Shown in pieces: positions 46,629-52,207 of a stretch of 64,000 nucleotides of DNA; positions within the stretch are counted from its first letter, which is position 1, and each line of letters begins with the position of its first letter. Made by a program: the position numbers and the translations under genes. Under the pieces are notes generated by a model. That model did no database searches and had not been told where the DNA came from. It saw only the letters and a list, made by a program, of their open reading frames with translations. The DNA is from an uncultured Actinomycetota bacterium (GTDB taxonomy: Bacteria > Actinomycetota > Actinomycetes > Actinomycetales > Microbacteriaceae), in contig CAVWVZ010000011.1 of NCBI GenBank assembly GCA_963758615.1, positions 302,369 through 366,368 on the forward strand, read 5' to 3'.

Positions 46629-47330
46629 TCAGTTCGTGCCGCCGGTGAGGTGCACCGCGTAGCCCCAGCAGCCCGCCTGCTCCCAGTCGTAGTCTGCGCC
46701 GAGACCGGAATCACCGTAGAGCGCGAGATCCCAGGCCGCGTACTCGTCGGAGGTCAGTTCCGCAGGCATCGGCGGGAACCGGTTGGACTGCGCGGACTTC
46801 GGGTTCCACCACTCCCAGTAGAGGTACTCCTGACCGGCGGCGGTCATGCAGTCGCGCACGATCTGCTGGAACGCGAGCCACTCCCTGCGCTTCTCGGGCG
46901 GCGGCGGGGGCGTGGTGCCGTCGGGGTTCGGCTCGACGGAGTCGGGCCCGCCGGGTGCCGGGTGGCCGGCGGCCGGGTCGTCGGGTATGGGCGTGGGGGT
47001 GGGCACGTCGCCTGTGGGCGGCGCTGCGGACGGAGGGGTGACCGGCTCGGTCGGTTGCGTCGAGGGAGTGGGGGCCGGCTCGGTCGGCTGCGTGGCGGCC
47101 TCGGGCGGGGCCGGTTCGGCCGCGTCGACCTCGGGCGCGCCATCGGTCGACGACTCCGGCGCCTCGCCCTCGCTCACCTCGAACGCGCCCGAGGAGTTCG
47201 GCACCTCGTGCGGCAACCGGGCGTCGTAGAAGACCGGGGCTCCGGTCATCGCGGCGGCAGCCCCGGCGAAGACCGCCGCGGCGACGGCGAGCGCGACCCC
47301 ACCGGCCAGCACCAGCAACTTCTTGCGCAC
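46629..47330 (-). CDS. Hypothetical membrane-anchored/secreted protein: Pro/Thr linker plus one Cys/Trp domain
   Basis: MRKK plus hydrophobic segment, PT-rich linker, C-terminal VRDCMTAAG..WEWW..WDLALYG..AGC. Confidence 0.8.
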   Translation of the reverse strand: MRKKLLVLAGGVALAVAAAVFAGAAAAMTGAPVFYDARLPHEVPNSSGAFEVSEGEAPESSTDGAPEVDAAEPAPPEAATQPTEPAPTPSTQPTEPVTPPSAAPPTGDVPTPTPIPDDPAAGHPAPGGPDSVEPNPDGTTPPPPPEKRREWLAFQQIVRDCMTAAGQEYLYWEWWNPKSAQSNRFPPMPAELTSDEYAAWDLALYGDSGLGADYDWEQAGCWGYAVHLTGGTN

Positions 47331-48772: not shown

Positions 48773-49162
48773 ATGGTGCGCTTCCTGATCCGCACGGCGA
48801 TCTTCCTGGTCACCGCCGCCCTCGGCCTGCTCGTCGCCTTCTGGCTGCTGCCCGAGTTCCACATCGAGTGGGGCGGGTTCCTCGTCGCGACGCTCGTCTT
48901 CGCGATCGCCCAGAGCCTGCTCGCACCGTTCACCTTCAGGCTCGCCCACCGCCACGCGCCGGCGGTGCTGGGCGGCATCGGCCTCGTCTCGACGTTCATC
49001 GCGCTCCTCATCGCGAGCCTGTTCCCGAGCGGGATCCAGATCGACGGCTTCACCACGTGGGTGCTCGCGACGCTCATCGTCTGGGCGGTCACGGCGCTCG
49101 GCACGTGGCTGCTGCCGCTCATCTTCCTGAAGCGACGCGTCGACGCGCGCAACGAGCCGTAG
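48773..49162 (+). CDS. 4-TM membrane protein of the 'phage holin superfamily IV'/DUF360 type
   Basis: Four hydrophobic segments, GGIGLVSTF, IQIDGFTTWVLATLIVW; leaderless after TAGCCT; no phage context. Confidence 0.8.
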   Translation: MVRFLIRTAIFLVTAALGLLVAFWLLPEFHIEWGGFLVATLVFAIAQSLLAPFTFRLAHRHAPAVLGGIGLVSTFIALLIASLFPSGIQIDGFTTWVLATLIVWAVTALGTWLLPLIFLKRRVDARNEP

Positions 49163-49196: not shown

Positions 49197-50060
49197 TCAG
49201 TGCATGTTGTCGTTGCCGGTGACGTGCGTCGCGTAGCCCGAGCAGCCGGCATCCTCCCAGCGGTAGGCGGCAGCCGAACCGGCGTCGCCGTACATCGCCG
49301 CAGTCCATGCGGCCTGTTCATCGGCGCTCAGGTCCACGGGCATCCGTCCGTCGACCCGCGGGTCGGACGGCTGGTGCTCGGGGTTCCACCACTCGTAGTA
49401 GAGCACCTCGAAGCCGGCGTCGGCCATGCACTGACGAACCGCGTCGTCGAATACGAGCGACTCCTGGCGCGGCGTCGGCGTCGACGGGTCGTCGGGTGGC
49501 ACCGGGGCGGTGAGCGGCGTGCCCGCCGCGCGTGCGGCCTCTGCCGCGGCGACGCCAGCATCGGCGCATCCTCCGCCCGGGTTGTAGATGTCGGGTCCGT
49601 ACAGGGCCTGCGTCCAGAGCACCGAGGTCTCGAAGTCGAGCCCAGGGGGTTGCCCGCCTTCGCCGATCCACCAGAGGTTCGGCAGGTACTCGAACCCGGC
49701 GTCGTTCATGCACTGGCGCACGACCGCGTCCTGCCCGAGGTACTCGGCGCGTTCCTCGAGGCTCACGTACTCGGGGTCGCCGGGTTCGAGGTACGGGTTG
49801 TAATCGGCGGCCATCACGCCGGTACCGGGAACGCGCTCGGGACTCGCAGGGGTCACGTCGGTGGGCGCCACGGCGGCGGGCGCTGGGGCTGGCTCGGTCG
49901 ACGTCGGCTCGACGTCGACCGCGGTGGGCTCAGCCGCCGCGGTCGGCACCGGCTCCGGTTGATTGGCCGCGTACGCGGCCACGCCGAGTGCGACGACGGA
50001 TGCTCCGCCGACGACGGCGCCCGAGATCGCGACGATCGCGGCGATGCGTTGGAGGTTCAC
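49197..50060 (-). CDS. Hypothetical membrane-anchored/secreted protein: Pro/Thr linker plus two Cys/Trp domains
   Basis: GTG overlaps the upstream stop; N-terminal hydrophobic segment; VRQCMNDAG..WW..WTQALYG..GGC and VRQCMADAG..EWW..WTAAMYG..AGC. Confidence 0.8.
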   Translation of the reverse strand: MNLQRIAAIVAISGAVVGGASVVALGVAAYAANQPEPVPTAAAEPTAVDVEPTSTEPAPAPAAVAPTDVTPASPERVPGTGVMAADYNPYLEPGDPEYVSLEERAEYLGQDAVVRQCMNDAGFEYLPNLWWIGEGGQPPGLDFETSVLWTQALYGPDIYNPGGGCADAGVAAAEAARAAGTPLTAPVPPDDPSTPTPRQESLVFDDAVRQCMADAGFEVLYYEWWNPEHQPSDPRVDGRMPVDLSADEQAAWTAAMYGDAGSAAAYRWEDAGCSGYATHVTGNDNMH

Positions 50061-50818
50061 GCGGCGGCTCCCTCGGTGGTCATTCGCGCGGCGACATCCG
50101 TTCGCCGACGCTTCGATGCCCAGAGCGATCCCGCCGATGGCAGCCACCAGGCGGCCATCGCGACGAAGAAGAGGACGCCCGCGGCGGCGAGGCCCCGATT
50201 CAGCAGGATCGCCTGGGAGAGGGACGACAGGTAGAACTCGGTCAGCGTGGCGCTCGACGCGATGAGCGTGTACATGCCGAAGCGGATCAGCACGTAGCTC
50301 GCGGCCGCGAGCCAGAGCGCGCCGAGCCAGCGCAGCCGGGGGATCGCCGTGAGCACGGCACCGAGGAGCGCCATCGCGAGGCCGACCACCCCGGCCGCCA
50401 CGAGATCCCAGGCGCCGGCCCAGTCGCCGGCCGTCATGCCGGCTGCGGTACGTGCGACGACGAGCACTCCCCACGCGAGCAGCAGCGCAGTCGCGAGGTG
50501 CGCGAGCGCCGGCAGCGCCAGGGGGAACGTGCCCCAAGGGGCCGCGAGCGCGGCTCGGCGAAGTCGGGCGTACCGCCAGGCGAGATCGGCCGGGATGCCC
50601 CTGATCGCACGGCCCACGATCGCACGGCTGGTGGCGGAGTCGCCGCCGGCATCGGCGCGTTGCTCGTAGAGATCGGAGGCGAGCTCGGCGACGCGCGCGG
50701 TGGCGACCGGCTCGGGGAGGTCGCGGGTGTACCAGCGGCACCAGCCCAGCACGGCAGCGTCGACCCGGTCGCCCGCCGTGCGCGGCACGATCGTCTGTTC
50801 GATCAGCTCGCCGCTCAT
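50057..50818 (-). CDS. PadR-associated membrane protein
   Basis: Cytoplasmic N-terminus WCRWYTRDLP..RVAELASDLYEQ..GIPADLAWR, then about four TM segments; coupled to padR. Confidence 0.8.
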   Translation of the reverse strand: MSGELIEQTIVPRTAGDRVDAAVLGWCRWYTRDLPEPVATARVAELASDLYEQRADAGGDSATSRAIVGRAIRGIPADLAWRYARLRRAALAAPWGTFPLALPALAHLATALLLAWGVLVVARTAAGMTAGDWAGAWDLVAAGVVGLAMALLGAVLTAIPRLRWLGALWLAAASYVLIRFGMYTLIASSATLTEFYLSSLSQAILLNRGLAAAGVLFFVAMAAWWLPSAGSLWASKRRRTDVAARMTTEGAAA

Positions 50819-51171
50819 GCGAACGCCGCCTTCGGCTGCGGAGCGACGGCCTCGGCGCGTGCGGCGAGCTCGGCCCGGTGCGCAAGCTCGCCGGCACCGG
50901 TCACCCGGTACAACCGGCGCCGCGGACGACCCTCGGCCTCGGCGATCGCCGCGTCCTCCCACGTCGGTTCGAGCAGGCCGGAATCGGTGAGGCGCGCGAG
51001 CGCCTTGTAGAGCGTGCCGTGCGCCGTGAGCGCGCCGGCATCGTTGTGCTCGGCGATGCGCTTCGCGAGTGCGAACCCGTAGAAGTCGCCGTCTTCCCCC
51101 TGCAGTTCCATGCCTGCACCGAGGATGTGCATCTCGAGGTCGAGCAGTCGACCTTCACGTCTGCGTGCCAT
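50815..51171 (-). CDS. PadR family transcriptional regulator
   Basis: YGFALAKRI, GTLYKALARL..GLL..W, GRPRRRLYRVT..G; leaderless ATG 7 nt after TATTCT. Confidence 0.9.
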   Translation of the reverse strand: MARRREGRLLDLEMHILGAGMELQGEDGDFYGFALAKRIAEHNDAGALTAHGTLYKALARLTDSGLLEPTWEDAAIAEAEGRPRRRLYRVTGAGELAHRAELAARAEAVAPQPKAAFA

Positions 51172-51181
51172 GGTGGAAAGA

Positions 51182-51201
51182 ATAGGAAGATATCTTCCTA
51201 T
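51182..51201. promoter_or_regulatory. Perfect 20-bp palindrome, probable PadR operator
   Basis: ATAGGAAGATATCTTCCTAT, AT-rich in a GC-rich background, overlapping the padR -10. Confidence 0.8.
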
Positions 51202-51361
51202 CCGCAAGCACCTCTTCGAGCGACCTCTCGCGCCGCCGCTCGAAGCCGAACCTGATTCGGTGTTCGACCGTGCTCGGGTTAGCATGCTCCGCACCCCGAA
51301 TCACCCCGCTGCATCCGCGGGCACCGCCCCCGCAGCATCCGAACCCGAAAGCACCACCACC

Positions 51362-52207
51362 ATGCGCAAGCGCACCGTCGCGCTCATCGTCGTCGCCGCC
51401 GTCCTCCTCGCCCTCGTCGGCGGGGCGTACTGGGCCGGCCGCCACCTCTTCCACGAGCCCACCGCCGAGGGGGTCGACTCCGTCGTCGGCGAGCTCGGCG
51501 GCACCCGCGTCCTCGGCGTCTTCGCCCATCCCGACGACGAGCAGACCGTGAACGGACTGTTCTTCCGCGCCAAGCAGCGCGACGGCGCGTACACCGCGAT
51601 GATCACGGCGACGCAGGGCGAGGCCGGCCACCAGACGCCCGTGGTCGCCAGGCAGGAGGACCTCGGGACCATCCGCAAGGCCGAGGCGCTGAAGAACAGC
51701 TTCAACCTCGGTGTCGACCGTCACGTCGTGTGGGACTACCCCGACGGCGGCGTGCCCGATGCCGACGAGGACGAGCTCGTGGCGCGCGTCGTCGCCGAGA
51801 TGAAGCGCGTGCGCCCCGATGTCGTCGTGGCCTTCTGGCCAGAGAGCGGCGCGACCGGGCACGCCGACCACATGGAGATGGGCCGGATCACCGAGCTCGC
51901 GATCGCCGAGCTCGAGGCATCCGACGGCTCATACACCGGGCCCGACCAGCTCGTCTACACGATCAGCCCGTCGGGCGCGCTCGCGGCGTTCGGCGGCGAG
52001 ACCGGGGCGTTCGTCGTCGCGAACCAGCCGAAGCCCGAGTACGCGATGAGCGCCGAGGTGGCGAAGAAGCACGAGGGCTGGACCATCCACGCGTCGCAGG
52101 CGAACTTCCTGCCCGAGGCGTACATCCTGCCCACGTGGCTCGTCTACTCGCTGTGGGACCAGGAGTTCTACCACGTGCGCGATCTCGAGGCCGAGCCCCT
52201 CACGTAG
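51362..52207 (+). CDS. PIG-L/LmbE family de-N-acetylase with an N-terminal membrane anchor
   Basis: AHPDDE, TATQGEAG, RKAEA, YPDG, GHADH; N-terminus MRKR plus hydrophobic segment. Confidence 0.87.
   Translation: MRKRTVALIVVAAVLLALVGGAYWAGRHLFHEPTAEGVDSVVGELGGTRVLGVFAHPDDEQTVNGLFFRAKQRDGAYTAMITATQGEAGHQTPVVARQEDLGTIRKAEALKNSFNLGVDRHVVWDYPDGGVPDADEDELVARVVAEMKRVRPDVVVAFWPESGATGHADHMEMGRITELAIAELEASDGSYTGPDQLVYTISPSGALAAFGGETGAFVVANQPKPEYAMSAEVAKKHEGWTIHASQANFLPEAYILPTWLVYSLWDQEFYHVRDLEAEPLT

What the first reader, a model, noticed from the sequence alone, without database searches (positions are those of the whole stretch)
49197..51201. PadR - membrane protein - surface protein operon under a perfect 20-bp palindrome
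Seen: three overlapping genes (ATGA and GTGA junctions), a leaderless padR, and ATAGGAAGATATCTTCCTAT over its -10. The single-domain paralog at 46629 lacks the palindrome. Established: short PadR regulators are often co-encoded with membrane proteins in envelope-stress modules. Inference: a three-part signalling unit, with the Cys/Trp protein sensing outside, the membrane protein relaying, and PadR released from or held off the operator.
Basis: partly seen in the sequence, partly recalled or inferred. Interest (0 to 1): 0.65.

Follow-up and report, generated by a model that had tools for sequence, protein, structure and literature searches.

The report
Self-repressed PadR, membrane partner, surface protein
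A small Agromyces operon encodes a PadR repressor that very probably shuts off its own promoter through a conserved palindrome, a membrane partner resembling known PadR signal transducers, and an unannotated surface protein; the unit is conserved in about a tenth of sampled Microbacteriaceae genomes and is a lineage-specific version of a described signalling design.

Summary
On the minus strand, padR (50815-51171), a 253-aa membrane gene (50057-50818) and a 287-aa Cys/Trp gene (49197-50060) overlap by ATGA and GTGA. The perfect 20-bp palindrome lies at 51182-51201 and is unique in the 3.96-Mb genome.

In 34 loci from Agromyces and 16 other Microbacteriaceae genera, the core GGAAG-ATAT-CTTCC fills the spacer between a TTGC -35 and a TAnnnT -10. 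That -10 ends 6-7 nt before the padR start codon, which is the layout of a leaderless, autorepressed promoter. Both 4-nt gene overlaps are conserved as well.

The membrane protein has three N-terminal helices with a conserved GxP, followed by 4 TM helices. Every homologue follows a padR. This matches the published HAAS-PadR dyad in form, but HAAS sequence models do not reach significance.

The Cys/Trp domain is all-helical with two invariant Cys per copy. It has no Pfam, PDB or viral fold match, and named members come only from Microbacteriaceae.

The operator has no second site, the third gene varies between genera, and Cys/Trp paralogues exist without PadR. The surface protein is therefore more likely the regulated output than the dedicated sensor. 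I rate this a new variant of a known kind, of moderate interest.

The parts
51182..51201 (.). Perfect 20-bp palindrome ATAGGAAGATATCTTCCTAT. The conserved core GGAAGATATCTTCC (51185-51198) is the inferred PadR operator.
   Evidence: Unique in the window and the genome. The core is conserved at the same promoter position in 34 loci from 17 genera.
51202..51207 (-). Inferred -35 hexamer TTGCGG of the padR promoter.
   Evidence: T at the first position in 34 of 34 loci and TTG(C) in most, at a fixed 17-nt spacing from the -10. The simple consensus scan missed it.
51179..51184 (-). Inferred -10 hexamer TATTCT. Its first 3 nt are the end of the palindrome.
   Evidence: TAnnnT is present in 34 of 34 loci, ending 6 nt (29 loci) or 7 nt (5 loci) before the start codon. 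This is the leaderless layout.
50815..51171 (-). padR: a 118-aa short (subfamily-2-sized) PadR winged-helix repressor.
   Evidence: Pfam PF03551 at 2.8e-12, 46.9 bits. The closest solved chains are 2esh and 9qbd, both PadR-family. Orthologues are 76-96% identical in Agromyces type A loci (66-69% in the type B loci) and 48-66% in other genera.
50057..50818 (-). Membrane partner, 253 aa. Its start ATG overlaps the padR stop (ATGA).
   Evidence: The AF2 model has pLDDT 85.8. A padR lies upstream of every homologue (18 of 18). There are no Pfam or NCBIfam hits.
50546..50776 (-). Cytoplasmic three-helix HAAS-like domain (residues 15-91) with the motif R73-G74-I-P76-A-D-L-x-W-R.
   Evidence: Helices 15-30, 36-57 and 61-91. 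14 of the 23 invariant columns lie in residues 23-82, including G74 and P76. hhalign against a HAAS alignment gives P=0.0012 and probability 19%, against 0.23 for the reversed control. One of 25 members hits Pfam HAAS at E=0.0088.
50135..50518 (-). Four transmembrane helices (residues about 101-228). The short outer loops carry conserved G131, W133, G135, A136, D138 and S189.
   Evidence: Secondary structure from AF2 and the conservation list. The N-in/C-in topology is inferred from the positive-inside rule.
49197..50060 (-). Cys/Trp protein, 287 aa. It has an N-terminal hydrophobic anchor or signal (49965-50060), a Pro/Ala/Thr/Glu-rich linker and two helical domains. Its GTG start overlaps the membrane gene stop (GTGA).
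   Evidence: Translation. The AF2 model has pLDDT 80 overall and above 90 in the domains. Orthologues start at the same overlapping codon, ATG in most.
49503..49805 (-). Cys/Trp domain 1 (residues 86-186; invariant C117 and C165).
49200..49493 (-). Cys/Trp domain 2 (residues 190-287; invariant C211 and C273; W252).
46629..47330 (-). Single-domain Cys/Trp paralogue (233 aa) lying after an MFS gene. It has no palindrome and is not part of the operon.
   Evidence: The positional orthologues in other Agromyces carry two domains and also lie after the MFS gene.

Best explanation
This is a self-contained, autorepressed envelope-signalling operon.

(1) A PadR dimer binds the palindrome GGAAG-ATAT-CTTCC. 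The site fills the -35/-10 spacer and runs into the -10 of a leaderless promoter, so bound PadR blocks RNA polymerase and keeps all three genes low. This step is inferred from the anatomy and its conservation; I put it at about 0.85.

(2) The second gene encodes a 4-TM protein whose cytoplasmic three-helix, GxP-bearing N-terminal domain works like a HAAS transducer. On a membrane or envelope cue it captures or reconfigures PadR and relieves repression. This is inferred by analogy and from strict padR adjacency; I put it at about 0.55.

(3) The third gene encodes an anchored or secreted, disulfide-stabilised helical protein on a Pro-rich stalk. It is the regulated output of the system and may feed back on the 4-TM protein through its conserved anchor helix and the conserved outer loops of the partner. 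This is an inference; I put 'output' at about 0.5 and 'pure sensor' at about 0.25.

The conserved 4-nt overlaps suggest coupled translation of the three products.
For: Operator: it is unique in the genome. It is conserved in position and sequence in 34 loci from 17 genera, with the -10 ending 6-7 nt from the start codon in 34 of 34.

PadR identity.

Precedents: Listeria LstR and LltR repress mainly their own operons, which encode TM proteins (PMC6624303). B. cereus bcPadR1 binds its own promoter and represses padR plus a membrane protein; induction by AS-48 is indirect, because DNA binding is unaffected in vitro (PMC3506622). The HAAS-PadR dyad has been proposed as an alternative to two-component systems (PMC11237479).

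Membrane partner: three helices plus 4 TM. G74 and P76 are invariant, and conservation is concentrated in the N-terminal domain. A padR lies upstream in 18 of 18 homologues. The ATGA overlap is conserved.

Third gene as output: there is a single operator. The third position is variable or empty in several genera. Orphan Cys/Trp paralogues exist, and some genomes have the domain without the partner. Identity falls from PadR to the membrane protein to the Cys/Trp protein.

Linkage: the genes are adjacent in 9 of the 10 other genomes that hold both.
Against: HAAS homology is not significant. Pfam HAAS gives no hit for P0002. hhalign probability is only 19%. Neither the PDB sequence search nor the fold search finds a relative.

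The operator lacks the ATGT-N8-10-ACAT motif reported for other PadR proteins (PMC3506622).

Degenerate operators elsewhere in the genome cannot be excluded, which would weaken the argument that the third gene must be the output.

The conserved 4-nt coupling of the third gene, and its conserved anchor helix (M1, R5, A8, G14, A20 and A29 at 90% or more), would also fit a stoichiometric sensor complex.
Confidence: 0.6

Rival explanations
1. The Cys/Trp protein is the extracytoplasmic sensor, the 4-TM protein relays the signal, and PadR is released from or held off the operator. All three are signalling parts, and the true output lies elsewhere or is the 4-TM protein.
For: The 4-TM protein has only very short outer loops, so like intramembrane-sensing kinases it may need an accessory outside protein. 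The 4-nt translational coupling of genes 2 and 3 is conserved across genera. The outer-loop residues are conserved, and so is the anchor helix of the Cys/Trp protein. The two genes are adjacent in 9 of 10 genomes.
Against: No second operator exists in the genome, so a system made only of sensors would have no output. PadR-membrane pairs occur with a different third gene or with none. Cys/Trp genes occur without the pair (P0004; G117 and G193). Extra Cys/Trp copies sit in the same operon in G156 and G237.
Confidence: 0.25
2. Ligand-gated PadR with no relay. PadR itself binds a small molecule in the cytoplasm, as PadR does with phenolic acids or LmrR with drugs. The membrane and surface proteins are both simply effectors, for example a resistance or repair pair.
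For: Classical PadR and LmrR work in this way (background in PMC3506622). HAAS membership of P0002 is not proven.
Against: The most conserved part of P0002 is its cytoplasmic N-terminal domain, not the membrane part. A padR lies upstream of every homologue with a start/stop overlap. The C-terminal helix of the 118-aa PadR has no Trp of the kind that, as I recall, lines the drug pore in LmrR (sequence). For the analogous B. cereus pair, the inducer did not affect DNA binding in vitro (PMC3506622).
Confidence: 0.12
3. The palindrome is not a protein operator. It would be a promoter element, a hairpin, or a signal for the divergent PIG-L gene.
For: A 10+10 perfect inverted repeat can form a cruciform or hairpin. 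It lies in a shared 190-bp intergenic region with a PIG-L deacetylase gene.
Against: Its position is fixed relative to the padR -35, -10 and start codon in 17 genera, whereas the PIG-L neighbour is kept only within Agromyces. The arms are conserved while the flanks vary.
Confidence: 0.03

Closest known systems
HAAS-PadR-like wHTH dyad (Ravi et al., mSystems 2024, PMC11237479)
   Same: A standalone short PadR is followed directly by a membrane protein. The N-terminus of that protein is a three-helix cytoplasmic domain with a GxP motif in helix 3, fused to a multi-TM domain. The dyad is proposed to act in place of a two-component system for envelope signals.
   Different: The Pfam HAAS model does not recognise P0002, and profile-profile comparison is only suggestive. 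The 4-TM part matches no described family. A translationally coupled extracytoplasmic Cys/Trp protein is a regular third member. No PspC, Toastrack or LiaF domains are present. The N-terminal domain family was found only in Microbacteriaceae among the genomes searched.
B. cereus bcPadR1 (BC4206)-BC4207 operon (PMC3506622, PMC2774856)
   Same: A subfamily-2 PadR binds its own promoter and represses a padR-membrane protein operon. Induction by an envelope-active bacteriocin appears indirect. The membrane protein itself confers tolerance.
   Different: That operon has two genes and no secreted partner. The reported PadR operator motif is ATGT-N8-10-ACAT, not GGAAG-N4-CTTCC. It is from a Firmicute and is not leaderless as far as is known.
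Listeria LstR-Lmo0421 and LltR-Lmo0600/0601 (PMC6624303)
   Same: These PadR repressors have regulons that are essentially their own operons, which encode TM proteins. [quoted passage not shown]
   Different: The downstream proteins differ (a RodA/FtsW homologue and other TM proteins). There is no Cys/Trp domain, and the inducers are equally unknown.

Membership tests
PadR family (Pfam PF03551), short subfamily-2 type | Winged-helix PadR domain scoring above the Pfam gathering threshold | tested here: met
   46.9 bits against a cut-off of 27, E=2.8e-12, residues 27-96. PDB relatives 2esh and 9qbd are PadR-family.
PadR family (Pfam PF03551), short subfamily-2 type | About 110 aa with a single C-terminal helix after the wHTH | tested here: met
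   The protein is 118 aa, and only about 20 residues follow the PadR domain. The structure itself was not modelled.
PadR family (Pfam PF03551), short subfamily-2 type | Operator with an ATGT-N8-10-ACAT inverted repeat, as reported for LmrR and PadR (PMC3506622) | tested here: not met
   The conserved site is GGAAG-ATAT-CTTCC, and there is no ATGT/ACAT pair in 51179-51207. This is a typical feature of the family rather than a defining one.
HAAS domain (Pfam PF22564; PMC11237479) | Three consecutive alpha-helices at the N-terminus | tested here: met
   AF2 helices 15-30, 36-57 and 61-91, with pLDDT 86-95 in that stretch.
HAAS domain (Pfam PF22564; PMC11237479) | Conserved GxP motif in the third helix | tested here: met
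   G74 and P76 are invariant in 53 sequences. Across genera G is invariant and P is present in most. The kink itself was not measured.
HAAS domain (Pfam PF22564; PMC11237479) | Always next to a standalone PadR-like wHTH gene | tested here: met
   A padR lies directly upstream in 18 of 18 homologues outside this genome, usually with a 4-nt overlap.
HAAS domain (Pfam PF22564; PMC11237479) | Sequence match to the family model | tested here: inconclusive
   Pfam HAAS gives no hit for P0002 even at E up to 10, and none in the whole-genome scan. One of 25 N-terminal domains hits at E=0.0088. hhalign against 30 actinobacterial HAAS regions gives P=0.0012 and probability 19%, against 0.23 for the reversed control.
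LAS / Peptidase_M15 (VanX-like), considered for the Cys/Trp domain | Zn-binding H-x6-D...H motif and the mixed alpha/beta LAS fold | tested here: not met
   There is only a 20-residue match at E=0.14. The motif reads EWWNP with no His. The model is all-helical, and no PDB fold match was found.

The most novel reading that the evidence does not exclude
The Cys/Trp protein is a new kind of extracytoplasmic co-receptor. It docks through its conserved anchor helix onto a loop-poor 4-TM HAAS-like transducer. This would give a three-component, phosphorylation-free signalling relay (surface sensor, membrane transducer, PadR) that Microbacteriaceae use instead of a two-component system for an envelope cue.
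Probability: 0.25. Interest if true: 0.65.

Novelty: new variant of a known kind. Interest (0 to 1): 0.45.

Why it matters
PadR-HAAS pairs have been proposed from comparative genomics as an alternative to two-component signalling, but how the signal reaches PadR has not been shown.

This Microbacteriaceae version is unusually clean for testing that. It has one operator, one operon, a leaderless promoter with a sharply defined 14-bp site, and a small 4-TM partner with almost no outer loops. It also has a regular third partner that is either the output or the missing sensor.

The work also defines two unannotated families. One is the N-terminal HAAS-like domain, which Pfam does not detect. The other is a disulfide-bearing helical surface domain with no structural relative. 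Both are currently labelled 'hypothetical protein' in every source checked.

Tried and rejected
- The consensus promoter/terminator scan found nothing. The -35 TTGCGG is too weak for that scan, and the promoter was recovered only by cross-genus alignment.
- Pfam and NCBIfam scans of the membrane and Cys/Trp proteins found nothing.
- The weak Peptidase_M15 hit, and a UniRef name 'D-alanyl-D-alanine dipeptidase' on one homologue, were rejected. There is no His motif and the fold is all-helical.
- Foldseek of the Cys/Trp model against PDB and viral structures gave no match.
- Foldseek and PDB sequence profiles of the membrane protein gave only generic helical-bundle noise.
- I suspected a LysM domain in the alternative third genes of L038 and L043. 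Pfam does not support it.
- An HMM of the Cys/Trp domain against the alternative third genes gave only a weak hint for L046.
- A genome-wide search for further operators found none in a promoter context.
- An order-level search for the N-terminal domain found it in no genome of the 23 other families sampled. Only 18 candidates per genome were scored, so sensitivity was limited.
- The divergent PIG-L gene as a co-regulated partner was rejected, because it is syntenic only within Agromyces.
- Complex prediction was not possible, because the structure tool takes single chains only.

Full report
**What is there.** The window is a high-GC Actinobacterium. Homologues of its proteins are named Agromyces, and it lies at G000:C11:302369-366368. 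Three genes lie on the minus strand.
- padR, 50815-51171, 118 aa, Pfam PadR 46.9 bits.
- A 253-aa membrane protein, 50057-50818. Its ATG overlaps the padR stop as ATGA.
- A 287-aa protein, 49197-50060. Its GTG overlaps the membrane gene's stop as GTGA.

The palindrome ATAGGAAGATATCTTCCTAT lies at 51182-51201. It has no other match at up to 3 mismatches in the window, and 0 of 100 shuffles gave one. It has no other match in the 3.96-Mb genome. The 14-bp core GGAAG-N4-CTTCC occurs three times against 3.7 expected, and only this copy is in a promoter. The single-domain paralogue at 46629-47330 has no such site.

**Promoter and operator.** I collected the homologous operon from 30 Agromyces loci and from 18 loci in 16 other Microbacteriaceae genera, then aligned the DNA upstream of padR.
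- In all 34 loci with enough upstream sequence and a recognisable -10 (L049 is cut off by its contig end), a TAnnnT hexamer ends 6 nt (29 loci) or 7 nt (5 loci) before the start codon. No Shine-Dalgarno sequence is present.
- A T-T-G-C -35 lies 17 nt upstream.
- The 14 bases next to the -10 are GGAAG-ATAT-CTTCC, with most positions conserved in 28-34 of 34 loci.
- In this window the -10 is TATTCT (51179-51184) and the -35 is TTGCGG (51202-51207). The palindrome fills the spacer and contributes the TAT of the -10.

This is the classic position of a repressor operator on a leaderless promoter. Binding itself is inferred, not shown. The site differs from the ATGT-N8-10-ACAT motif reported for other PadR proteins (PMC3506622).

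**Conservation of the triad.** Within Agromyces, 17 of 30 loci found with the third protein carry padR and the membrane gene directly upstream. The others are positional orthologues of the paralogue P0004, which lies after an MFS gene.

Synteny within a genus is weak evidence, so I sampled 201 genomes from 101 genera of the family.
- The membrane protein has homologues in 19 genomes, and each of the 18 outside this genome is preceded by padR.
- The Cys/Trp domain is found in 21 genomes.
- Eleven genomes, counting this one, have both. In 9 of the 10 others the Cys/Trp gene directly follows the membrane gene.
- The 4-nt overlaps at both junctions recur in almost every locus.
- The flanking PIG-L, holin-4-like and MFS genes are kept only within Agromyces.

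The mobile, conserved unit is therefore the three genes and their promoter.

**The membrane partner.** The AF2 model (pLDDT 85.8) gives three N-terminal helices (15-30, 36-57, 61-91) and four TM helices. Fourteen of the 23 invariant columns fall in residues 23-82, including R70, G74, P76, D78, W81 and R82. The cytoplasmic domain is thus the most constrained part.

The outer loops are very short but carry conserved G131, W133, G135, A136, D138 and S189.

This matches the published description of the HAAS domain: three helices, GxP in the third, always next to a standalone PadR, and N-terminal to multi-TM domains (PMC11237479).

Sequence tests do not confirm homology, however.
- Pfam HAAS (PF22564) gives no hit for P0002.
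- One of 25 N-terminal domains hits at E=0.0088.
- hhalign against an alignment of 30 bona fide actinobacterial HAAS regions gives P=0.0012 and probability 19%, against 0.23 for a reversed control.
- PDB sequence and fold searches are empty.

I therefore call it HAAS-like. It works like one by anatomy and context, but membership is unproven. Its N-terminal domain was not found in 23 other families of the order (limited sensitivity).

**The Cys/Trp protein.** It has an N-terminal hydrophobic helix (residues 3-32) with a possible AYA/A cleavage site. A low-confidence linker rich in Pro, Ala, Thr and Glu follows, then two all-helical domains of three helices each with pLDDT above 90. Each domain has two invariant Cys: C117 and C165, then C211 and C273. 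This fits one disulfide per domain outside the cell.

No Pfam or NCBIfam family matches, and neither does any PDB or viral fold. A profile of the three window copies finds only 126 cluster representatives among 1.84 billion proteins. Every named member is a 'hypothetical protein' from Agromyces, Plantibacter or Leifsonia.

The weak VanX-like match is 20 residues at E=0.14. It lacks the His ligand and is rejected.

- The operator has no second copy, so derepression yields only these three proteins, and one of them must be the output.
- The third position varies. L038 and L043 have a different anchored Cys-containing protein of 310-330 aa, L046 has a lipoprotein that is at most a divergent relative, and several loci have none.
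- Cys/Trp genes exist without the pair. Examples are P0004 here, genomes G117 and G193, and multiple copies in many Agromyces. In G156 and G237 extra copies sit in the same operon.
- Identity falls from PadR (76-96% in Agromyces type A loci) to the membrane protein (53-86%) to the Cys/Trp protein (36-85%). That is expected for a surface-exposed cargo.

In favour of a sensor role are the very small outer loops of the partner, the conserved coupling, and the conserved anchor helix. I therefore favour 'regulated output that may also feed back' over 'pure sensor', and I could not test the interaction.

**Relation to what is known.** Short PadR repressors that mainly control their own operon encoding TM proteins are documented in Listeria (PMC6624303). 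In B. cereus, the inducer AS-48 acts indirectly and the membrane protein confers tolerance (PMC3506622). The HAAS-PadR dyad has been proposed as a replacement for two-component systems (PMC11237479).

The present locus is a lineage-specific variant of that design. It has a distinct operator, a leaderless promoter, a partner that current models miss, and a new surface-domain family as regular cargo.

**Limits.** No multimer modelling was possible. All mechanistic steps beyond gene and site anatomy are inferred.

Noticed in passing
L026-L030 (Agromyces genomes G048, G080, G061, G050, G004), upstream of padR; for example L027:3190-3270 minus strand: A second, paralogous triad type in Agromyces has three direct repeats of GATATCTTCCTAT(A/G)(G/C)T about 23 bp apart instead of one perfect palindrome. 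Each repeat carries its own TAnnnT. Some genomes hold both triad types (G055, G077). They could be three tandem operator/promoter units.
   Followed up: partly
L003 (G066:C9, closest relative, 85% identical) and L028 (G061:C12): The membrane-partner gene is split into two frames by a frameshift, giving 209 aa and 164 aa truncated readings, while padR and the Cys/Trp gene are intact. This is either a pseudogene or an assembly error.
   Followed up: no
L038:524-1519(-) and L043:2160-3086(+): In two other genera the third, translationally coupled gene is a different anchored protein of 310-330 aa with conserved Cys. Its C-terminal 'AAY(I/V)VA(A/S)GD...IADRFG' stretch looks LysM-like by eye, but Pfam does not confirm it.
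   Followed up: partly
G000:C7:181851-182314 (own genome, outside the window): A second padR (59 bits) is followed directly by an ORF with the best HAAS hit in the genome (20.8 bits, below the cut-off). It is probably another PadR-HAAS pair.
   Followed up: no
window 48773-49162 (+): A 129-aa Phage_holin_4_2 family membrane protein (E=5.5e-9) lies convergent with the operon's end. It is syntenic with the MFS gene in many Agromyces but is not part of the triad in other genera.
   Followed up: partly
window 51362-52207 (+): A PIG-L (LmbE-type) deacetylase with an N-terminal TM helix is divergent from padR and shares the 190-bp intergenic region. This neighbourhood is kept only within Agromyces.
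   Followed up: partly
L034 and L036 (G156, G237; same genus): Here the operon is padR, then the membrane gene, then a single-domain Cys/Trp gene, then a two-domain Cys/Trp gene. Both paralogue types that are separated in this window lie in one operon there.
   Followed up: partly
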